DNA of 64,000 bases from Candidatus Rokuibacteriota bacterium (lineage in GTDB: Bacteria > Methylomirabilota > Methylomirabilia > Rokubacteriales > CSP1-6), in the NCBI GenBank assembly GCA_016193045.1, contig JACPSW010000007.1, positions 6,487 to 70,486 on the forward strand, in the 5' to 3' direction. The translations under genes were made by a program, and so were the position numbers. This document shows positions 53,076 through 61,426 of the stretch, piece after piece (the first letter of the stretch is position 1; each line of letters opens with the position of its first letter). Below the pieces are notes generated by a model that saw only the letters and a list, made by a program, of their open reading frames with translations, was not told the origin of the DNA and did no database searches.

Positions 53076-53691
53076 GACCCGCCGGGCCGCGGGCGAGCGC
53101 GCCCCGGCGACGCCGCCGTTGGCCCCCTTCGCGAGCCCCCCGGCTCCCGAGGGGGTTCTGTTTGAGCCCCTGACCGAGCGGATCGACGAGGCCCGCCGGC
53201 TCTTCAGTTACGCGGGGGCGTGGGCCCCGGCGCCGGCGCCCGGCGAGGTCCTCTGGGGGGCCTCGACCGGGCGGGAGGCCGATCGGAGGCTCATCGGCGC
53301 GCTTCTCCTCGAAAAGAAGGGGGCGGCCGGCATGCTCCACGGGCCGGTGGTGGTCCTCACTGCGGGAGCCGGCTGGAACCCGATTGAGGTGGCGGCCGGG
53401 CTTCTGGCCGCCCTCATACCGCACGCCACGGGGAGTGGGATCGAGACCCTCTTCGCCCGCCCTCAGGGGCTGGACCGGGTCTGGGTCAGATTCGGCTTCA
53501 TCCCGGTTCCCGAAGCGGACCTGCCGCGGGCGTTCAAGGGACGGCCGGGGTCCGGCCTCTTCGCGTGGCGCGGTGGGACGGCGCTCTGGTCCACGCGCAA
53601 GCCGCAGAGCGACGAGGCCCCCTCGACCCCTCACCCTGCCTCTCTTCCCCCTCACCCTGCCTCTCCCCAAAGGGGGGAGGAGAAGATGTGA
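53062..53691 (+). CDS. GNAT-fold (ArgA/ArsN2-like) protein, function unknown
   Basis: LIGALLLE..GMLHGPVV..AAGLL..GIETLF..RFGF.PVP..LP pattern. C-terminus is derived from a REP. Confidence 0.6.
   Translation: MGRSKTRRAAGERAPATPPLAPFASPPAPEGVLFEPLTERIDEARRLFSYAGAWAPAPAPGEVLWGASTGREADRRLIGALLLEKKGAAGMLHGPVVVLTAGAGWNPIEVAAGLLAALIPHATGSGIETLFARPQGLDRVWVRFGFIPVPEADLPRAFKGRPGSGLFAWRGGTALWSTRKPQSDEAPSTPHPASLPPHPASPQRGEEKM
53627..53682. repeat. REP-like CCCTCACC/GGGGAG element (family copy 3), inside the GNAT 3' end
   Basis: Tandem CCCCTCACCCTGCCTCTC x2 followed by CCCCaaaGGGG. Confidence 0.7.
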
Positions 53692-54623
53692 AAAGCATAA
53701 TAGTGGCACTCGCTGGCGGCACCGGAGCCGCCAAGTTCCTCAGAGGGCTCGTCGCCGTGGTTCCGCCCGAGCAGGTCGCGGTGATCGTCAATACCGGCGA
53801 CGACGCGCTCGTCTGGGGGCTCCACGTCTCCCCCGATCTCGACACCGTGACCTACGCCCTCGCCGGCCTTCTCGACGAGGCCAAGGGGTGGGGAGTCAGG
53901 GACGACACGTTCCGCTGTCTGGCCGCCATGGCGGCCCTCGGCCGCGAGACGTGGTTCAACCTGGGGGACCGGGACCTCGGAACCCACCTCTTCCGCACCG
54001 AGCGCCTCGCGGCCGGCCGGAGCCTCACCGAGGTCACCGAGGCGATCCGCAGGGCGCTGGGCGTGAGGAGCCGGCTCCTTCCCGCGTCGGACTCCCCCGT
54101 GGCCACCCGCGTCCTGACGCCCGGAGGCTGGCTCGGCTTTCAGGAGTACTTCGTGAGGGAGAAGGCCCGGGTCGAGGTGCTGGACGTCGCCTACGGGGGA
54201 GCCGAGACGGCTTCCCCCGCGCCCGGGGTGCTCGAGGCGATCCACGCCGCGACCGCTGTCGTCATCTGCCCATCGAACCCGATCACGTCCATCGGACCGA
54301 TCCTGGCCGTCCCTGGAATCGCCGAGGCGCTGGCGAGCACTCCGGCCCGAGTCCTGGCCATCAGCCCCATCGTGGGGGGCGCGCCGGTGAGCGGCCCCGC
54401 GGGGAAGCTGATGGCGGCCAAGGGGCTGCCCGTGTCCGCTCTCGGAGTGGCGCAGCTCTATCGCCCGTGGCTGGACGTGCTCGCCCTCGACCGACAGGAT
54501 GAACGCCTGGCGCCGGATGTCGCCGCGCTCGGCATCGCGCCCCTGGTCACCGGCACGCTCATGACCGACCGCCGGGCGGAGGCGGCGCTGGCCCGCGCGG
54601 TGGTCGACCGCCTCGCGTCATGA
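53688..54623 (+). CDS. cofD: 2-phospho-L-lactate transferase
   Basis: LAGGTGAAKF, VNTGDD, SPDLDTV, WFNLGDRD, FQEYFV, PSNPITSI, SGPAGKLM. Confidence 0.95.
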   Translation: MKSIIVALAGGTGAAKFLRGLVAVVPPEQVAVIVNTGDDALVWGLHVSPDLDTVTYALAGLLDEAKGWGVRDDTFRCLAAMAALGRETWFNLGDRDLGTHLFRTERLAAGRSLTEVTEAIRRALGVRSRLLPASDSPVATRVLTPGGWLGFQEYFVREKARVEVLDVAYGGAETASPAPGVLEAIHAATAVVICPSNPITSIGPILAVPGIAEALASTPARVLAISPIVGGAPVSGPAGKLMAAKGLPVSALGVAQLYRPWLDVLALDRQDERLAPDVAALGIAPLVTGTLMTDRRAEAALARAVVDRLAS

Positions 54624-55291
54624 TCGTCGCCGCGGTCCCGGTCAAGGACCTCAGCAGCGCCAAGCAGCGGTTGGTCCCCCTTCTCTCGCCCTCGGAGCGC
54701 CGGGACTTGGCGCGGGCCATGCTGGAGGATGTGCTGGCGGCGCTGTGCGGAGCCGGCCTCGACGCGGTCCTCGTGGTCACCCGGGACGCCGAGGTCATCG
54801 AGCTGGCCCGCCGCGTGGCCGTCACGATCCTGGAAGAGGCGGCGAATCGCGGCCACACCGAGGCGGTGGCGCTGGCCCAAAGAGAGGCGGTCAAGATGGA
54901 GGCGCAGACCTTCCTCACCATCCCGGGGGACGTGCCGCTCGTCACCGCGGAAGAAATCCGCGCGCTGACCCGGGCCGTGCGCGCCGGACGGTCAGCGGTC
55001 TTCGTGCCGTCGCGGTCGGGCTTCGGGACCAACGCTGCGCTCCTGGCCCCGCCCGATGTCATGCCGCTCAAGTTTGGAGAGCCGTCGTTCGCCAACCACC
55101 TCAGCGCCGCGCGCGAGCGGGGGGTCGAGCCGACGGTGCTGGGGCTGCCGGGCCTGGGCCTCGATATCGACGGCCCCGACGACCTGGCGTCGCTCGCCGC
55201 CGAGGGCGGGCATACGCGCAGCGGCCGCCTCGTCAGCGTCTGGGGCGCCCCTCACCTCTTCTCCTCTCCCCAGAGGGGAGAGGCAGGGTGA
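54620..55291 (+). CDS. cofC: 2-phospho-L-lactate/PEP guanylyltransferase
   Basis: VPVK..AKQRL, PGDVP, GTNA, FGEPSF..H, DIDGPDDL. Confidence 0.93.
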   Translation: MIVAAVPVKDLSSAKQRLVPLLSPSERRDLARAMLEDVLAALCGAGLDAVLVVTRDAEVIELARRVAVTILEEAANRGHTEAVALAQREAVKMEAQTFLTIPGDVPLVTAEEIRALTRAVRAGRSAVFVPSRSGFGTNAALLAPPDVMPLKFGEPSFANHLSAARERGVEPTVLGLPGLGLDIDGPDDLASLAAEGGHTRSGRLVSVWGAPHLFSSPQRGEAG

Positions 55292-55317
55292 GGGGGGAGA
55301 GGATTAAGGTGAGGGGG
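55248..55317. repeat. REP-like CCCTCACC/GGGGAGAG palindrome (family copy 4), overlapping the cofC stop
   Basis: CCCCTCACC..CCTCTCCCCagaGGGGAGAGG..GGTGAGGGG. Confidence 0.75.
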
Positions 55318-55329
55318 CCCGGTAACTCC

Positions 55330-56082
55330 GTGCCGCCGCGCTATGAAGTGATCGGGGTCGTCGGCCTTCCCGAGATCGGGAAGGGGGACGACCTGGGCCG
55401 CCTGATCGTCGAGGCGGCCGCCGCCCAGGGCACCGCGCTCGGAGATGGCGACCTGCTCGTGGTCAGCCAGAAGGTCGTGTCGAAATCAGAGGGGCGCGTG
55501 GTGCCTCTGGCCGGCGTCACGCCCTCCCCCGCGGCCCTGGCCATGGCGCGCGAGCTCGCCAAGGACGCGCGGCTGGTGGAGCTGATCCTCCGCGAGTCGC
55601 GGCGCGTGGTGCGCATGGACAAGGGAATCCTCATCGTGGAGACCCACCACGGCTGGATCTGCGCCAACGGCGGCGTGGACCAGTCCAACGTGGACCTGGA
55701 CTCCGCTTCCCTGCTCCCCGAGGACCCCGATCGCTCCGCCCGCGCGCTGAGGGAGCGGATCCGCGGGCTGACCGGCGCGGACGCGGCCGTCATCATCTCC
55801 GACACGTTCGGGAGGCCGTGGCGCGAGGGGCTGACGAACGTGGCGATCGGGATCGCCGGCCTCGCGCCGATCCGGAACTACCTCGGCGCCCAGGACCCGG
55901 CGGGACACACGCTCCAGGCCACCCTCCTGGCCGTGGCCGACGAGCTCGCCGGGGCGGCTGAGCCCGTCATGGGCAAGCTGAACCGCGTGCCCGTCACGAT
56001 CATCCGCGGCCTCCCCTTCGAGCGCGGGGAGGACAGCTCGAAGGCGCTGCTCCGCGACCCCTCGCGCGACCTCTTCCGCTGA
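55330..56082 (+). CDS. cofE: coenzyme F420-0:L-glutamate ligase
   Basis: GLPEI..GDDL, QKVVSKSEGR, ANGGVDQSN, SDTFGRPWREG, ADELA, DLFR. No C-terminal nitroreductase domain. Confidence 0.95.
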   Translation: MPPRYEVIGVVGLPEIGKGDDLGRLIVEAAAAQGTALGDGDLLVVSQKVVSKSEGRVVPLAGVTPSPAALAMARELAKDARLVELILRESRRVVRMDKGILIVETHHGWICANGGVDQSNVDLDSASLLPEDPDRSARALRERIRGLTGADAAVIISDTFGRPWREGLTNVAIGIAGLAPIRNYLGAQDPAGHTLQATLLAVADELAGAAEPVMGKLNRVPVTIIRGLPFERGEDSSKALLRDPSRDLFR

Positions 56083-57585: not shown

Positions 57586-58890
57586 GTGCGGCGCCTGACG
57601 TCCCTCCTGCTCAGCCTGGCGCTCCTGGCGCTCGCGAGCCTCGCGCCCGCCGCCGAGCCCCGCGCCGTCACCCGGACGCGGCTCCCCAACGGGTTGACGG
57701 TTCTCGTGAGAGAAAACCCTGCGTCAGCCGTCGTAGCGGTCGCGCTCGCCGTGAAGCTGGGAACGCGCTGGGAGACGCCGGAGACGGCCGGCATCTCCAA
57801 CTTCCTCCAGCTCATGGTCGTGCGTGGGACGGCGTCGCGGAGCGGAACCCAGATCGTCGAGGACGCCGAGCGGCTCGGCGGCCGCATCGACGGCCGGGGC
57901 GACCAGGACTGGTCCGCCATCGAGGCGGCCGCCCTCGCGCGCAACTGGATCCCGCTCCTCGAGCTGGTCGCCGACGTCGCCCTCCACCCCTCGATGCCCG
58001 CGGGGGTCGTGGAAGGGGTCAAGCAGTTCCTGCTGCGCCAGGTCCGGAACCGCGGCGACCAGCCTTATCCCGTCGCCTTCGACACGCTGATGCAGTCGCT
58101 GTTCGGCCCTCACCCGTACGCCTGGCGTCCGCTGGGTCGCCGAGAAAGTCTGGAGCGTCTGGATCGGGCGGCGCTCCTTGCCCACTACCGGCGTCACTAT
58201 GTTCCGGGGGGGATGGTGCTGGCCGTGAGCGGCCAGGTGCGCGCTCCCCTGGTCCTGAGAGAAGTCGAGCGCCTGTTCGGCGCGATGCCGGCGGGACAGC
58301 CGCCCGCCGCGACCAGCGTGCGCGCTCCGGCGATGGCCGCCTCGCGCGTCGGGAGCGACGTGCCCGGAGCCCAGGCCCAGATCCTGCACGGAGCGCTCGC
58401 GCCTCCGATGACCCATCCCGATTACCCGGCAGTGAAGGTCCTGAGCACCGTGCTGGGCGGCGGCATGGCTGGCCGCTTCTTCTCCGAGATCCGGGACAAG
58501 CAGGCCCTGGCCTATTCGACCGCAGCGCTCTACCCCACGCTGGCGGACACGGCGTACTTCGTGGCCCAGCTGGGCACGGGGCCGGAGAATCTCTCGCGCG
58601 CCCAAGCCAGTCTAAAGAAGGAGCTGGAGCGGATCCGGGAGGAGCCGCCGGCGGCCGAGGAGCTCCGCGTGGCCAAGGCGTACCTCCTGGGCAACTTCGC
58701 GATGGACCGGCGGACCAATGAGCGGCAGGCGTGGTACCTGGCCACCTACGAGCTGGCCGGGGTCGGCTATGAATTCCTTGACCGCTATGTCACTGGCGTG
58801 AGGGCCGTGACGCCCGCCGACGTCCAGCGCGTGGCCCGAACGTATCTGGGGACGATCCGGGAAAGCGTGGCCGGCCCCCAGGTTCGCTGA
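57586..58890 (+). CDS. M16 family peptidase, non-catalytic partner subunit, exported
   Basis: Signal peptide, LPNGL, HxxEH replaced by NFLQL, retains the R/Y pair in IRDKQALAY. Confidence 0.88.
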   Translation: MRRLTSLLLSLALLALASLAPAAEPRAVTRTRLPNGLTVLVRENPASAVVAVALAVKLGTRWETPETAGISNFLQLMVVRGTASRSGTQIVEDAERLGGRIDGRGDQDWSAIEAAALARNWIPLLELVADVALHPSMPAGVVEGVKQFLLRQVRNRGDQPYPVAFDTLMQSLFGPHPYAWRPLGRRESLERLDRAALLAHYRRHYVPGGMVLAVSGQVRAPLVLREVERLFGAMPAGQPPAATSVRAPAMAASRVGSDVPGAQAQILHGALAPPMTHPDYPAVKVLSTVLGGGMAGRFFSEIRDKQALAYSTAALYPTLADTAYFVAQLGTGPENLSRAQASLKKELERIREEPPAAEELRVAKAYLLGNFAMDRRTNERQAWYLATYELAGVGYEFLDRYVTGVRAVTPADVQRVARTYLGTIRESVAGPQVR

Positions 58891-58905: not shown

Positions 58906-58931
58906 GGTGTCAGACACCGGTGTCTGACACC
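58906..58931. repeat. perfect 26-bp palindrome
   Basis: GGTGTCAGACACCGGTGTCTGACACC just before the SD of the protease gene. Confidence 0.7.
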
Positions 58932-58945
58932 ATGGGAGGTTTTGC

Positions 58946-60499
58946 ATGACCAAGGTGTTACGGCTGGCGCTCCTGACCCTGCTCTCGATTCCCACCGCGG
59001 CCTTCGCCGATCACCCCATCCCCGTCCAGGAGCTGGTGCTGCGGGCCAAGCCCGCCGTTGCCCTCGTAACGGCGCGAGTGGATGCCGAGGCCGTGGTGAA
59101 CTGCGGCGCGGGGGCGATCACGGTCAGGCCCGCGCCCTTCGTGGAGACCGGCACCGGCTGGTTCATCGACGGCCGCGGCTGGCTGATCACCAACGCCCAC
59201 GTCGTGGACCCGGCCCACCGGCTGCCTCCGTGGGTGACGCAGGAGCTCAAGAAGAGCGCCGTGGACGAAGCCTGCGTGAACCCCGTGCTCGCCCGGCAGG
59301 GGCTGATGCGCGGCCAGCGCCCCGACTTCGAGGACCAGATCCGACGCCGGGTGGACATGGGGAGCATCCGGCTCAAGCCGCTTCCCCAGGTGACGGTGCT
59401 CCTCTCCAGCGGCGCGCTGCTGCCGGCCGAGATCAAGAAGTTCAGCGCGCCGCTCCTGCTCGACGCGGCGGGCAAGCCCGTCGCCGACTCCGGCCGCGAC
59501 CTGGCGCTGCTCCGCATCACGGACGGCGTCTACCCGGCGCTCGCCCTGACCGACGAAGACTCCAAGATCGGGGAGCCCGTCCGCATCATCGGGTTCCCGG
59601 GCGTGGTGCTGAGCCACGAGCTCCTGAACAGGACCGCCGCCCTGGAGGCGTCGGTGACCACCGGCGCCGTCTCGGGGCTCAAGCAGGACGCCATCGGCCA
59701 GGACGTGATCCAGACCGACGCGTCGGCGGCGCCGGGTAACAGCGGCGGCCCGGCCATCGGCCACGGCGGCACGGTGGTGGGTGTCCTGACGTTCGTCTCG
59801 CTCTCGCCCTCGGGCGGGAGCATCGTCCAGGGCTTCAACTTCCTCATCCCGTCGCGCGACGTCAAGAAGTTCCTCCAGGGGACCGACGTGACGAAGCCCG
59901 GGGAGAGCCCGTTCAACACGGTCTGGGCCGCGGGCCTCCACGACCTCGGCCAGGAGAGCTTCAAGAGCGCGGCGGCGAAGTTCGCCGAGGCCAACAGGCT
60001 CCTCCCCGATCTCCCGGACGTCAAGCGCGCGCTCGCCGAGGCCGAGTTCAAGGTGAAGAACCCTCCCCCGCGCCCGTTCCCGTGGGCCTGGGTCACCCTG
60101 GGGCTCGCCGTCGTCAGCGGGGGCGGGTACGGGGCCATGTGGTATCGCCGCTGGCAGCGCAACCGCTTCCGTATCAAGGCCGGCGAGGTCGTCAGGATGC
60201 TGGAGGCCGGGGTCAACCCTCTCCTGCTCGACGTCCGGCAGGAATCCGCGGCCAAGACGGCGCCGCTCAAGATCCCGGGCGCCACCTACATCTCGCCGGA
60301 CACGCTGGAGCAGGGCCAGGCCGGCATCGAGGTGGACCCCAACCGGACCGTCGTCGCCTACTGCACCTGAACGGACGAGGCGACGAGCGCCCGTGTGGCG
60401 CAGCAGCTCCGGAACGTCGGCTACAAGGACGTGCGCATCCTCAAGGGCGGGCTCGGGGGCTGGGCCAACGCCGGCCTCCCCCTGGAGACCGCCAAGTAG
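58946..60499 (+). CDS. exported trypsin-like serine protease - TM - rhodanese fusion; candidate selenoprotein (UGA at 60368 read as Sec)
   Basis: Signal peptide, TNAHV/DLALL/GNSGGP triad, TM helix, LLDVR..KIPGA..VVAYCT-UGA-TDEATSARVAQQL..VRILKGGLGGWANAGLP, ending at TAG 60499. Confidence 0.82.
60371..60411 (+). other. putative bacterial SECIS element
   Basis: GCGCC-CGUGU-GGCGC hairpin whose loop begins 21 nt after the UGA; lower CGGA/UCCG pairing. Confidence 0.55.
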
Positions 60500-60503
60500 G
60501 CCT

Positions 60504-60562
60504 GGGGTCAGGCATGCGTTATTGCGTTTCCGGCCGCTACGCAAATACGCAAGCCTGACCCC
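60504..60562. repeat. REP-like inverted pair, possibly acting as terminator or mRNA stabiliser
   Basis: GGGGTCAGGCATGCGTTATTGCGT ... ACGCAAATACGCAAGCCTGACCCC. Confidence 0.7.
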
Positions 60563-60567
60563 GGCGG

Positions 60568-60597
60568 TTGACACTCCTGCCTGCGGCGCCCTACACT
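60568..60597 (+). promoter_or_regulatory. sigma-70 promoter
   Basis: TTGACA-18 nt-TACACT upstream of the crotonase gene. Confidence 0.5.
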
Positions 60598-60646
60598 CGG
60601 TCTCTGTCCACGCCGAACGCCATTCTCTTCATCCAAGGGGGACGCC

Positions 60647-61426
60647 ATGACGTACGCCGACATCCTCTACGAAGTCAAGAACCAGATCGCCTGGATCACC
60701 ATCAACCGGCCCGACAAGGGCAACACCTTCCGCCGCCAGACAGTCCTGGAGCTCATACAAGCGCTGAACGACGCCCGCAACGACCCCGACGTGAGGGTCG
60801 TCGTCCTCACGGGCGCCGGCGACCGCTTCTTCTGCATCGGCGGGGAGAAGGAGCCCACCGACGGCATGCTCCACTACCACAACGTCCCGCCGGTGGTGGA
60901 CCTCTACACGCTGATCGACCTGATGCCGGTGCCCGTTGTCGCGATGGTCAACGGCTTCGCCGTCGGCGGCGGGAACGTGCTGGCCAACATGTGCGACCTC
61001 ACGGTGGCCAGCGAGCAGGCGGCCTTCCGCCAGGTCGGCCCGTCCATGGGCTCCTACGACGCCGGCTTCGGCACGTGGTATCTGGAGGACGCCGTCGGGC
61101 GCAAGCGCGCGCGCGAGATCTGGTACCTGAACCGCAAGTACTCGGCCCGCGAAGCTCAGGCCATGGGGCTGGTCAACGAGGTCGCGCCCCCCGCCGAGCT
61201 GAGGGCGCGCACCGAGGCGCTCTGCGAGGAACTGAAGGCCCGAGGTCCCCAGGCGCTCGCGGCGCTCAAGGCGGCCTTCCACGCGCGGCACAACGGCGCG
61301 ACCGGCCTCTCCCGCGTCACCATCGACCACCTCGTCGCCCACTACTACCACACCGAGGAGTCCAAGGAGCTGGGCCGGGCCTTCAACGCCAAGGAGAAGC
61401 CCAACCCCGAGAGGTTCTACCGATGA
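60647..61426 (+). CDS. crotonase-family enzyme, MenB/BadI-like (naphthoate synthase or ring-cleaving hydrolase)
   Basis: ITINRP, FCIGG, VNGFAVGGGNVL, QVGPSMGSYDAGFG. Confidence 0.8.
   Translation: MTYADILYEVKNQIAWITINRPDKGNTFRRQTVLELIQALNDARNDPDVRVVVLTGAGDRFFCIGGEKEPTDGMLHYHNVPPVVDLYTLIDLMPVPVVAMVNGFAVGGGNVLANMCDLTVASEQAAFRQVGPSMGSYDAGFGTWYLEDAVGRKRAREIWYLNRKYSAREAQAMGLVNEVAPPAELRARTEALCEELKARGPQALAALKAAFHARHNGATGLSRVTIDHLVAHYYHTEESKELGRAFNAKEKPNPERFYR

What the first reader, a model, noticed from the sequence alone, without database searches (positions are those of the whole stretch)
58946..60499. Hidden selenoprotein: periplasmic trypsin protease fused across the membrane to a C-x-U rhodanese
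Seen: the ORF track stops at TGA 60368 in the middle of a rhodanese active-site loop (VVAYCT*). The frame stays open for 42 more codons that complete the fold (TDEATSARVAQQLRNVGYKDVRILKGGLGGWANAGLPLETAK). 41 of the 42 codons end in G/C, and the single exception (CGT) sits in the loop of a GCGCC-CGUGU-GGCGC hairpin 21 nt past the UGA, where a bacterial SECIS belongs. Established: DedA-type rhodaneses carry YCxCPNExxSARVA, so the UGA aligns with a Cys, and rhodanese selenoproteins are known. Inference: the protein has a signal peptide, an intact His/Asp/Ser protease, one TM helix followed by basic residues, and a cytoplasmic C-T-U rhodanese. That could couple envelope proteolysis to Se/S redox chemistry, and selenium supply would switch between a truncated and a full-length form. 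I do not know of a described protein with this architecture.
Basis: partly seen in the sequence, partly recalled or inferred. Interest (0 to 1): 0.9.

Follow-up and report, generated by a model that had tools for sequence, protein, structure and literature searches.

The report
Selenocysteine rhodanese fused to membrane protease
The gene is not cut short at its TGA: it very probably encodes a selenocysteine-containing protein that joins a periplasmic protease, one membrane helix and a cytoplasmic rhodanese domain, a family that public annotations truncate.

Summary
The ORF 58946-60370 ends at TGA 60368-60370. The frame runs 42 more codons to TAG 60497-60499, and these complete a Pfam rhodanese domain.

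The TGA is very probably a selenocysteine codon:
- The genome has selA, selB, tRNA-Sec (anticodon TCA) and a Sec-type selD.
- 40 of 57 homologous rhodanese regions taken from 61 related genomes carry TGA in the same Y-C-x-U motif.
- 39 of those 40 have a perfect GCGCC-N5-GGCGC hairpin at the same offset. Only 1 of 17 non-TGA homologues has it.
- The hairpin meets the published bacterial SECIS constraints.
- Contigs from three DNA studies carry the TGA.

The protein has a signal peptide, an HtrA-like protease (H85/D185/S266), a TM helix and a cytoplasmic C473-x-U475 rhodanese.

C-x-U rhodanese selenoproteins are already catalogued (NF041203). The fusion to a protease was not found in the papers I could search. 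Non-Sec relatives within the fusion family carry Ser, Thr or Glu, never Cys. DedA-rhodanese relatives carry Cys.

The function, probably a redox or ligand-sensing cytoplasmic module on an envelope protease, is inferred and not shown. This is a new variant of a known kind, of moderate interest.

The parts
58934..58939 (+). Shine-Dalgarno-like GGGAGG, 6 nt before the ATG
   Evidence: Read directly from the sequence; not tested further.
58946..60499 (+). Full coding sequence of the selenoprotein: 517 residues with U at 475, TAG stop included
   Evidence: Codon-position GC is the same before and after the TGA. Orthologues of 92-68% identity all have 1 TGA.
58946..59008 (+). Predicted signal peptide, residues 1-21 (MTKVLRLALLTLLSIPTAAFA, then DHP)
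   Evidence: Read from the sequence. The AF2 model has helix 2-13, then a low-confidence stretch 15-23. The cleavage site is inferred, and no signal-peptide predictor was available.
59150..59875 (+). HtrA-like (S1C) trypsin-fold protease domain, residues about 69-310. Catalytic codons are H85 (59198-59200), D185 (59498-59500) and S266 (59741-59743).
   Evidence: Pfam Trypsin_2, 77.1 bits. H85, D185 and S266 are invariant in 34 of 34 aligned homologues. The best Foldseek matches are DegS, DegP, DegQ and HtrA1 (E about 1e-14 to 1e-15).
59909..60058 (+). Helical linker region, residues about 322-371 (three helices in the model)
   Evidence: AF2 secondary structure has helices H322-335, H339-352 and H357-371. 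No family was assigned.
60083..60151 (+). Transmembrane helix, residues about 380-402, followed by the basic stretch RRWQRNRFR
   Evidence: Read from the sequence. The AF2 model has one long helix at 380-406. W380 is invariant and W403, N406 and R407 nearly so. The topology is inferred from the positive-inside rule (my knowledge).
60173..60490 (+). Cytoplasmic rhodanese domain, residues about 410-515
   Evidence: Pfam Rhodanese at 413-508. The best NCBIfam rhodanese model is NF041203, rhodanese-related (seleno)protein, at 72.1 bits, below its cut-off of 115. PDB relatives are 6mxv and 1yt8.
60362..60364 (+). Codon of the invariant Cys473 of the C-x-U motif
   Evidence: C473 is invariant in 34 of 34 full-length homologues and in 33 of 33 rhodanese domains.
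60368..60370 (+). UGA read as selenocysteine (U475)
   Evidence: TGA sits at the same motif position in 40 of 57 homologous regions. The Sec machinery is present. Contigs of independent runs cover it with no listed variant.
60387..60401 (+). SECIS core hairpin GCGCC-CGUGU-GGCGC, lying within codons S481-A485
   Evidence: The stem is perfect in 39 of 40 TGA-bearing genes and in 1 of 17 without TGA. MFE of the 26-nt core is -9.0 kcal/mol or lower in 40 of 40. The 29 TGA genes that encode SARVA use only two codon strings. One compensatory pair and one wobble pair were seen.

Best explanation
The gene encodes a 517-residue selenoprotein. UGA 60368-60370 is decoded as selenocysteine by the genome's own SelA/SelB/tRNA-Sec/SelD system. 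Decoding is directed by a SECIS hairpin 16 nt downstream that lies inside the coding sequence for S-A-R-V-A.

The product is a type-I membrane protein. It has a cleaved signal peptide, a periplasmic HtrA-like serine protease without PDZ domains, a helical linker and one TM helix. On the cytoplasmic side it has a rhodanese domain whose active-site loop carries Cys473-Thr-Sec475.

Inferred mechanism (about 30% likely as stated): the cytoplasmic domain is a regulatory sensor module. The Cys/Sec pair would cycle between a reduced state and a selenenylsulfide or persulfide-loaded state. That would report cytoplasmic redox or sulfur/selenium status to the periplasmic protease through the single helix or through oligomerisation. 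In paralogues the same position is taken by an inactive-looking Ser/Thr rhodanese plus a cyclic-nucleotide-binding domain, which fits a sensor role.

The selenoprotein identity and the architecture are shown by comparative evidence. The topology is inferred from sequence rules and a model. The regulatory mechanism is inference only.
For: Machinery:
- selA (597 bits), selB (375 bits) and tRNA-Sec (70.9 bits, anticodon TCA) lie together on contig C39.
- selD (334 bits) itself holds one TGA.

Conservation of the codon:
- In the search of 61 genomes, 31 listed places covering both protease and rhodanese carry exactly one TGA. They lie in 26 of the 37 genomes of the window's family. One of the 26 is the unpublished G025, which gives 25 of 35 without G012 and G025.
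- In the 57 regions I extracted, 40 read Y-C-[T/S/V]-U, with the tail conserved to the stop.

SECIS:
- The stem is perfect in 39 of 40 TGA rows and in 1 of 17 non-TGA rows. The one exception among the non-TGA rows is a very recent Sec-to-Glu derivative, L045.
- Third-position entropy in the four stem codons is 0-0.17 bits in TGA genes and 0.98-1.52 in the others.
- 29 of 29 TGA genes encoding SARVA use AGCGCCCG[G/T]GTGGCG. The 3 non-TGA genes with the same peptide use three other codon strings, and 0 of 3 form a perfect stem.
- The published constraints are met: loop of 3-9 nt, stem of 4-16 bp, a G in the first two loop positions, 16-37 nt between UGA and loop, and MFE of -7.5 or lower (section 5 of PMC13188914 read).

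Coding signal: 41 of 42 tail codons end in G/C.

Assemblies:
- Record 5 of run X1 (60253-60372, 0 differences) and record 15 of run X3 (59900-60516, 8 differences) cover the TGA.
- No variant is listed at 60368-60370 in any of the 4 runs.

Architecture: (mean pLDDT 84.1).

Sensor reading:
- Paralogues carry cNMP_binding after the rhodanese (84.7 bits).
- One Sec form with the cNMP domain exists, L052.
Against: - No direct evidence of selenium incorporation or of translation past the UGA. The RNA-library contig that bridges the UGA (run X15, record 12, 21 differences) comes from a relative and may be DNA carry-over.
- The 81-nt region around the hairpin does not fold better than shuffled sequence (z +1.43).
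- Covariation in the stem is thin. The five core pairs are almost invariant, with one compensatory change and one wobble. For the percentage of paired cells, 34 of 500 shuffles reach the observed value.
- The rows are relatives, not independent samples.
- The non-Sec forms within the fusion family have Ser, Thr or Glu and never Cys. This is unusual for a redox Sec. It leaves open that the residue is dispensable for the protein's main job.
- The rhodanese domain scores below the NF041203 cut-off (72.1 against 115 bits).
- It is unresolved whether U475 or C473 occupies the canonical catalytic position.
- Nothing tested here links the rhodanese to protease activity.
Confidence: 0.85

Rival explanations
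1. The TGA is a true stop. The real product is the 474-residue protease with a membrane anchor and a truncated rhodanese stub. The 42 downstream codons are a decaying remnant, so the rhodanese part is a pseudogenised domain.
For: Gene callers read it this way. 27 of the 120 best public hits end at ...V[VI]AYC[ST]. TGA is an ordinary stop in this genome: the upstream M16 peptidase gene ends with TGA at 58888-58890.
Against: The TGA and the tail persist in 40 sequences that have diverged to 45-60% protein identity, and in a second gene architecture (DedA-rhodanese). The tail keeps the codon-position GC of coding sequence and completes the rhodanese fold. A remnant would not keep a nucleotide-level hairpin at synonymous sites.
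Confidence: 0.04
2. The UGA is read through without selenium, by near-cognate Trp or Cys tRNA or a suppressor. The conserved hairpin acts as a general read-through or pausing signal and not as a SelB-binding SECIS.
For: No tool here can distinguish Sec insertion from other read-through. The stem shows little covariation. The same stem core is found in frame only in these rhodanese genes of the genome, so it is not a general SECIS type of this organism. The tail after the selD UGA looks different.
Against: The genome keeps a complete Sec system. The hairpin meets all four published bSECIS constraints. The position aligns with Cys in 103 of the 120 listed DedA-rhodanese hits, which is the classic Sec/Cys pair. 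The closest NCBIfam rhodanese model is a curated (seleno)protein family with the same C-x-U motif.
Confidence: 0.06
3. It is a real selenoprotein, but the rhodanese is a working enzyme and not a sensor. It would be a membrane-tethered sulfur or selenium transferase or reductase, for example handling persulfide or selenide at the inner face of the membrane, and the protease domain would work independently.
For: Rhodanese domains are sulfurtransferases. The same C-x-[C/U]-P-[DN]-E loop is fused to a different membrane protein (DedA/VTT domain), so membrane tethering, not the protease, may be the common theme. C473 is invariant in all forms.
Against: The loop is acidic (TDEAT or PDEAT) and lacks the basic residues seen in the sulfurtransferase chains it aligns with (CGGGFRS, C-AGRTRS). 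Sec is replaced by Ser, Thr or Glu at least five times on the tree without loss of the domain. Paralogues add a cNMP-binding domain, which suggests regulation.
Confidence: 0.3

Closest known systems
Rhodanese-like domain-containing selenoprotein form 3 (NCBIfam NF041203, rhodanese_LYCAU, motif CxU), as listed in the review PMC13188914 and as 'COG0607 form 2, CxU' in PMC9312934 (passages seen)
   Same: It has a rhodanese fold and the same Cys-x-Sec motif at the end of the central strand. It is the best-scoring rhodanese model in NCBIfam for this protein (E 3.1e-20).
   Different: NF041203 models a stand-alone protein of about 126 residues. This domain scores 72.1 bits (68.6 in the genome search), below the cut-off of 115. 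Here the domain is the C-terminal cytoplasmic part of a 517-residue membrane protease.
DedA (VTT domain)-rhodanese fusion proteins. The architecture is noted in PMC10127716, which says the connection of the rhodanese is unclear (passage seen).
   Same: The rhodanese type is the same: [YF]-C-x-[C/U]-P-[NDS]-E-x-[TS]-[SA]-A-R. The domain follows a membrane part and a basic stretch. In the window's order these proteins also carry TGA and the same hairpin.
   Different: The N-terminal partner is a polytopic DedA membrane domain, not a periplasmic protease. Public members mostly have Cys at the Sec position (103 of 120).
HtrA/DegS/DegP family (S1C) periplasmic serine proteases
   Same: The protease fold and the catalytic His/Asp/Ser are shared. 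The top structural matches are DegS, DegP, DegQ and HtrA1. Like DegS (my knowledge), it is membrane-anchored.
   Different: No PDZ domain was found. The Do-family model TIGR02037 scores 74 bits against a cut-off of 416. The anchor is C-terminal and leads to a cytoplasmic domain.
Trypsin-like serine protease selenoproteins of the GOS metagenome (PMC2398784; passages seen)
   Same: They are predicted bacterial selenoproteins with a trypsin-like domain.
   Different: In those proteins the Sec replaces a conserved Cys inside the trypsin domain (COG5640). Here the Sec lies in a separate rhodanese domain on the other side of the membrane.

Membership tests
Bacterial selenoprotein gene (Sec-UGA decoded through a bSECIS) | In-frame UGA with conserved coding sequence on both sides | tested here: met
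   40 of 57 homologous regions carry the TGA in the same motif. The tail is conserved, and 41 of 42 tail codons end in G/C.
Bacterial selenoprotein gene (Sec-UGA decoded through a bSECIS) | Stem-loop meeting the bSECIS model of PMC13188914 (section 5, Fig. 2 legend, read): apical loop of 3-9 nt, upper stem of 4-16 bp, a G in the first two loop positions, 16-37 nt from UGA to the loop, MFE of -7.5 kcal/mol or lower | tested here: met
   The loop CGUGU has 5 nt with G at position 2. The stem has 5 bp. The loop starts 21 nt after the UGA. The 26-nt core folds at -9.1 kcal/mol, and at -9.0 or lower in 40 of 40 homologues. bSECISearch itself was not available.
Bacterial selenoprotein gene (Sec-UGA decoded through a bSECIS) | selA, selB, selC (tRNA-Sec) and selD in the same genome | tested here: met
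   All four score over their curated cut-offs. ARAGORN calls tRNA-SeC with anticodon tca.
Bacterial selenoprotein gene (Sec-UGA decoded through a bSECIS) | Homologues with Cys at the position of the UGA | tested here: inconclusive
   Cys is present in DedA-rhodanese relatives (103 of 120). Within the protease-fusion family it is Ser, Thr or Glu in 17 of 17 genomic rows and in 87 of 87 database proteins.
Bacterial selenoprotein gene (Sec-UGA decoded through a bSECIS) | Selenium physically incorporated at the UGA position | not testable with these tools
   This needs 75Se labelling or mass spectrometry.
NCBIfam NF041203 rhodanese_LYCAU (rhodanese-related (seleno)protein) | Score at or above the curated cut-off of 115 bits | tested here: not met
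   The score is 72.1 bits, and 68.6 and 75.6 bits for the two copies in the genome. I therefore do not file it as a member, only as the nearest family.
NCBIfam NF041203 rhodanese_LYCAU (rhodanese-related (seleno)protein) | C-x-U motif after the central strand (the family name LYCAU; motif CxU in PMC13188914) | tested here: met
   The window reads AYCTU. The family here reads Y-C-[T/S/V]-U.
Pfam PF00581 Rhodanese | Domain score over the gathering threshold, with the whole domain covered | tested here: met
   42.7 bits against 22.2, covering profile positions 3-101 of 102, only with the read-through tail.
Pfam PF00581 Rhodanese | Catalytic Cys at the first position of the six-residue active-site loop | tested here: inconclusive
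   A gap-free alignment to 6mxv puts U475 on the Cys of CGGGFRS. Profile alignments to other chains and to the genome's own rhodaneses put C473 there, with a two-residue insertion. In the AF2 model the strand ends at 472 and the helix starts at 476.
HtrA/Do family serine endopeptidase (TIGR02037) | Trypsin-fold domain with the His/Asp/Ser triad | tested here: met
   H85, D185 and S266 are invariant in 34 of 34. Foldseek matches DegS and DegP.
HtrA/Do family serine endopeptidase (TIGR02037) | One or two C-terminal PDZ domains, and a family score over the cut-off | tested here: not met
   No PDZ family appears in the Pfam scan. TIGR02037 scores 74 bits against 416.2.
GOS trypsin-like serine protease selenoprotein (PMC2398784) | Sec aligned with a conserved Cys inside the trypsin-like domain | tested here: not met
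   The only TGA lies at residue 475 in the rhodanese domain. The trypsin domain spans residues 69-280.

The most novel reading that the evidence does not exclude
The Cys473-x-Sec475 rhodanese is a cytoplasmic selenium or redox sensor that gates a periplasmic HtrA-like protease across the membrane. Because the sensor can only be completed by Sec insertion, selenium supply and SelB activity set the ratio of a tail-less, constitutively different protease to the regulated full-length form. This would be a translational selenium switch for envelope proteolysis. The repeated replacement of Sec by Ser or Thr, together with a cyclic-nucleotide-binding domain, would then be a change of input signal on the same output module.
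Probability: 0.1. Interest if true: 0.75.

Novelty: new variant of a known kind. Interest (0 to 1): 0.5.

Why it matters
1. Annotation. At least 27 of the 120 best public relatives are deposited as proteins cut at ...AYC[ST] and named only 'trypsin-like peptidase domain-containing protein'. A whole family of Rokubacteria/Methylomirabilota selenoproteins is therefore hidden in the databases. The DedA-rhodanese genes of the same order are hidden in the same way.

2. Biology. As far as my searches reach, this would be the first selenocysteine domain tethered to an envelope protease. It gives a concrete candidate for signalling from cytoplasmic redox or selenium chemistry to periplasmic proteolysis.

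3. Evolution. The family shows Sec exchanged for Ser, Thr or Glu at least five times and never for Cys, while a Cys two residues upstream is invariant. This natural experiment bears on what the second chalcogen of a C-x-U motif does.

4. Method. The 15-nt SECIS core sits inside a conserved peptide motif. TGA-bearing and TGA-free paralogues encode the same peptide with constrained and free codons respectively. This is a clean, reusable way to tell a SECIS from protein-level conservation.

Tried and rejected
- **Rfam.** A scan of 59800-60800 at E up to 10 gave only chance miRNA-type hits, all on the palindrome after the stop. It gave no SECIS family.
- **Folding energy.** The stretch 60360-60440 does not fold better than shuffles, so energy alone was dropped as an argument.
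- **Covariation.** Only one compensatory pair and one wobble were found in the five core pairs. The case rests on synonymous-site conservation instead.
- **Register of Sec against the canonical catalytic Cys.** Three alignments disagree. I could not read the coordinates of the AF2 model, so this stays open.
- **A shared SECIS type in this organism.** The pattern TGA-N12-22-GCGCCNGNNNGGCGC matches 12 places in the genome, against 2 for the reversed control. Only the two rhodanese genes lie in frames with coding-like GC3. The idea of a general SECIS core was rejected.
- **Gene neighbourhood.**
  - A pair of M16 peptidase genes lies upstream, and enoyl-CoA hydratase and a family III CoA-transferase lie downstream.
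  - M16 and enoyl-CoA hydratase also flank the orthologue of another genus, L025.
  - The cNMP-type paralogues sit beside an M1 aminopeptidase.
  - This is too weak to assign a pathway.
- **Tree.** The careful tree did not finish, so only the quick tree with a midpoint root was used. The direction of Sec gain or loss is therefore not established.
- **RNA runs.** Contigs of one metatranscriptome library cover the gene of a relative. This does not show transcription of this gene.
- **Literature.**
  - Searches found no paper describing a protease-rhodanese selenoprotein or a Rokubacteria selenoproteome.
  - The 2026 review PMC13188914 has 0 occurrences of 'trypsin' or 'protease'.
  - PMC12013261 (Haft and Tolstoy 2025) is not held.
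  - Deng et al. 2026 (Cell Rep) was not read.
  - Supplementary tables were closed. Any of these three sources could list this family.
- **Unused caps.** I did not run the search of protein representatives, complex prediction, the protein-atlas search, the second structure job or the third homologous-protein search.
Full report
**What is in the sequence.** The table-11 ORF runs from ATG 58946 to TGA 60368-60370 (474 codons) and ends ...RTVVAYCT. With the TGA read as a residue, the frame continues for 42 codons to TAG 60497-60499, giving 517 residues. With the tail included, Pfam finds Trypsin_2 (residues 69-280, 77.1 bits) and a complete Rhodanese domain (413-508, 42.7 bits against a cut-off of 22.2). 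The tail looks like coding sequence. 41 of its 42 codons end in G/C, against 30/41 and 20/41 in the other two frames. GC by codon position is 0.71/0.50/0.98 after the TGA and 0.69/0.48/0.96 before it. Taken alone it is not remarkable, because the 81-nt stretch folds no better than shuffles (z +1.43). Rfam has no matching family.

**The genome can decode Sec.** The window lies on contig C134 of a 3.86-Mb assembly of 181 contigs. The assembly is 93.6% complete. selA (597 bits), selB (375 bits) and tRNA-Sec (70.9 bits; ARAGORN gives tRNA-SeC, anticodon tca) lie together on contig C39. selD (334 bits) lies on C181 and itself contains one TGA. All four score over their curated cut-offs. TGA is otherwise a normal stop here: the M16 peptidase gene just upstream ends with TGA at 58888-58890.

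**The TGA is conserved, not a private mutation.**
- A six-frame search of 61 genomes (the window's own and 60 relatives) found full-length matches in the window's family. The closest ones, at 92, 92, 91, 85, 79, 77 and 68% identity, each have exactly one TGA.
- Counting the listed places that span protease and rhodanese, 31 carry one TGA. They lie in 26 of the 37 genomes of that family. One of the 26 is the unpublished G025, which gives 25 of 35 without G012 and G025.
- I fetched 60 loci and located the rhodanese active-site region in 57 (3 gave no hit or no motif). 40 read Y-C-[T/S/V]-U and 17 read Y-C-[T/A]-[S/T/E]. Two of the 17, L035 and L040, come from the unpublished genomes G012 and G025.
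- After the U, the tail is conserved up to a stop 42-61 codons later. In one case (L052) it continues into a cyclic-nucleotide-binding domain.
- Public protein databases hold the same family. The best hits are named Candidatus Rokubacteria, NC10 or Methylomirabilia. 27 of the 120 listed proteins end at ...V[VI]AYC[ST], so gene callers cut them at the TGA. 87 are full-length Ser/Thr forms, mostly 651-660 residues, with an added cNMP-binding domain.

**The hairpin is a SECIS by comparative evidence.**
- At a fixed offset (stem at +19 to +23 and +29 to +33 from the U of UGA), 39 of 40 TGA-bearing genes have a perfect 5-bp stem.
- The 40th (L073) has CGGCC/GGCCC. That is four pairs in that register, with a compensatory C-G to G-C exchange.
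- Among the 17 genes without TGA, the numbers of standard pairs are 5 (one gene), 4 (six), 3 (seven), 2 (one) and 1 (two).
- The single perfect case is L045. It is a same-genus paralogue with GAA in place of TGA in an otherwise near-identical gene, so it is a very recent loss.
- Third-position entropy in the four stem codons is 0.17, 0, 0 and 0.17 bits in TGA genes, against 0.98, 1.52, 1.00 and 1.00 in the others. Flanking codons of the TGA genes vary freely, at 0.8-1.9 bits.
- The cleanest control uses the peptide itself. 29 TGA genes encode S-A-R-V-A over the hairpin. They use only two codon strings, which differ in the loop, and 29 of 29 stems are perfect. The three TGA-free genes encoding the same S-A-R-V-A use three other strings, and 0 of 3 stems are perfect.
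- The structure meets the published bSECIS model as given in section 5 of PMC13188914. That model asks for a loop of 3-9 nt, a stem of 4-16 bp, a G in the first two loop positions, 16-37 nt between UGA and the loop, and MFE of -7.5 or lower. Here the loop has 5 nt with G second, the stem has 5 bp (7 bp in the DedA-type genes), the spacing is 21 nt, and MFE is -9.0 kcal/mol or lower in 40 of 40.
- Formal covariation is weak, because the stem hardly varies. There is one compensatory change and one wobble in the core. The outer pair alternates G-C (12) and C-G (5) but is unpaired in 19 of 38 distinct rows.
- The rows are relatives, so these counts are not independent trials. They do span several paralogous clades at 45-60% protein identity and a different gene architecture at about 40%.

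**Independent assemblies.** Contigs of three DNA runs from three studies, and of one RNA library, were laid on 59900-60560. No variant is listed at 60368-60370. The bin 60360-60382 has the highest depth in three of the four runs (X3 peaks at 60498-60520), because many related organisms share this stretch. Several contigs bridge the codon: X1 record 5 (60253-60372, 0 differences), X3 record 15 (59900-60516, 8 differences) and the RNA-library record 12 (60134-60519, 21 differences). The table omits 71 weaker differences, and these are contigs, not reads. This excludes an assembly-specific error but is not read-level proof.

**Architecture.**
- In an alignment of 34 full-length homologues, H85, D185 and S266 (TNAH, GRDLALL, GNSGGP) are invariant. 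So are two periplasmic cysteines (C53, C110), and Y472 and C473.
- The AlphaFold2 model has mean pLDDT 84.1 and pTM 0.66. It shows an N-terminal helix 2-13, then a low-confidence stretch, the protease strands, three helices at 322-371 and one long helix at 380-406. The rhodanese domain follows, with its central strand at 469-472 and a helix from 476.
- Foldseek's best matches are DegS, DegP, DegQ, HtrA1 and Deg1 (E 4e-15 to 1e-13).
- There is no PDZ domain, and the Do-family model scores far below its cut-off.
- The N-terminus (K3, R6, a hydrophobic core, AFA then D) looks like a Sec signal peptide. The helix WAWVTLGLAVVSGGGYGAMWY is followed by RRWQRNRFR. By the positive-inside rule (my knowledge) the protease is periplasmic and the rhodanese cytoplasmic. 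This is inference, because no topology predictor was available.

**Where the Sec sits.** Sec475 lies two residues after the invariant Cys473, at the start of the active-site loop. A gap-free alignment to PDB 6mxv puts U475 on the Cys of CGGGFRS. From U to the conserved S-A there are five residues, as from the catalytic Cys in the aligned chains. Profile alignments to 6mxv domain 2, to 1yt8 and to three ordinary rhodaneses of the same genome instead put C473 on that Cys, with a two-residue insertion. The register is unresolved. Either way the family has a C-x-U pair in a loop that is acidic ([TP]-D-E-x-T) and not basic.

**Relatives and evolution.**
- The same rhodanese type, Y-C-[ST]-U-P-[NS]-E-A-[ST]-S-A-R-V-A-L, with the same hairpin, ends DedA/VTT-domain membrane proteins in the window's order.
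- In public databases 103 of the 120 listed DedA-rhodanese hits carry C-x-C there.
- Inside the protease-fusion family, Cys never appears at that position (0 of 17 genomic rows, 0 of 87 database proteins). The residue is Ser, Thr or, once, Glu.
- A quick maximum-likelihood tree was built from 43 rows, without the two rows from unpublished genomes and with a midpoint root only. It needs at least five Sec/non-Sec changes. The window's clade (8 Sec forms ending right after the rhodanese) is sister to the Ser/Thr + cNMP clade (11 rows), with the branch joining the two clades supported at 100 (SH-aLRT).
- Some Sec forms keep a 60-residue tail homologous to the linker before the cNMP domain. One Sec form (L052) has the whole cNMP domain.
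- The window's genome has a second Sec paralogue at the start of contig C143 (59% identity). It has no member over the NF041203 cut-off.

**What it most likely does.** Comparative evidence shows that this is a selenoprotein with the stated domains. Inference suggests that the cytoplasmic part is a regulatory module. It is exchangeable in evolution (Sec-rhodanese, Ser/Thr-rhodanese plus a cNMP-binding domain, or both). Its loop does not resemble those of the sulfurtransferases it aligns with, and the periplasmic protease is the constant part. I therefore favour a Cys/Sec redox or persulfide switch that reports cytoplasmic state to an envelope protease, at about 30% as stated. The main alternative is a membrane-tethered sulfur or selenium transfer enzyme that works independently of the protease, also at about 30%. 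The neighbouring genes give no firm pathway. They are two M16 peptidases upstream and enoyl-CoA hydratase downstream, conserved in another genus, with an M1 aminopeptidase beside the cNMP paralogues.

**Known or new.** Rhodanese selenoproteins are established in the literature. Five forms are listed in PMC13188914, including form 3 = NF041203 with motif CxU. PMC9312934 lists 'COG0607 form 2, CxU' (passages seen). The Sargasso Sea and GOS surveys list rhodanese-related sulfurtransferases. The GOS 'trypsin-like serine protease' selenoproteins have their Sec inside the trypsin domain, so they are a different thing. DedA-rhodanese fusions are mentioned as an architecture of unclear meaning (PMC10127716). 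I found no description of a protease-TM-rhodanese selenoprotein. However, one relevant paper was not held, one was not read (Deng et al. 2026, cited for a Methylomirabilota genome with 63 predicted selenoproteins), and supplements were closed. I rate it a new variant (new architecture, new clade) of a known kind of selenoprotein domain, with interest of about 0.5.

Noticed in passing
window 60504-60562: Directly after the stop codon lies a 24-nt-armed imperfect palindrome (88% complementary, 11-nt spacer). It is a dispersed repeat, with 76 matches (both strands counted) across the contigs of the genome, many of them half-copies in tandem. Contigs from other organisms join at about 60502-60503 in the laid runs. 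It looks like a REP-type intergenic element and may also serve as a terminator. The orthologues L022-L024 have related copies at the same place.
   Followed up: partly
window 58906-58931: A perfect 13+13 nt palindrome with no spacer (GGTGTCAGACACC/GGTGTCTGACACC) lies between the M16 peptidase stop and the ribosome-binding site of the selenoprotein gene. It is absent from the upstream regions of the same-genus orthologues L022 and L023 that I printed (the L024 locus holds only 16 nt before its start). It may be an operator or a small insertion.
   Followed up: partly
L045 (G002:C84), same-genus paralogue of the second Sec copy: The codon at the Sec position is GAA (Glu) and not TGA, in a gene otherwise nearly identical to its TGA-bearing neighbours L043 and L053. 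The SECIS hairpin is still perfect. This is either a very recent Sec-to-Glu replacement or an assembly artefact.
   Followed up: no
G000:C143:5-1294 and G000:C127:6239-6631: The window's genome has a second protease-rhodanese selenoprotein gene (59% identical, YCTU, same hairpin type with loop AGGAU). It is cut by the start of contig C143. An N-terminal fragment at the end of contig C127 may be its missing 5' part.
   Followed up: partly
L068-L079 (genomes of the same order): DedA/VTT-domain-rhodanese genes carry an in-frame TGA in YC[ST]U-PNE with a 7-bp version of the same hairpin. Public copies of such genes are deposited truncated at ...YCS (6 of the 120 listed hits). This is a second hidden selenoprotein architecture.
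   Followed up: partly
window 53565-56082: The F420 biosynthesis genes cofD (2-phospho-L-lactate transferase) and an F420-0:gamma-glutamyl ligase domain protein lie upstream of the two M16 peptidase genes.
   Followed up: no
G000:C181:2176-3117 (-): The genome's selD is itself a selenoprotein gene (motif ...SCAGUASKMG...). The sequence after its UGA does not contain the GCGCC-N5-GGCGC core.
   Followed up: partly
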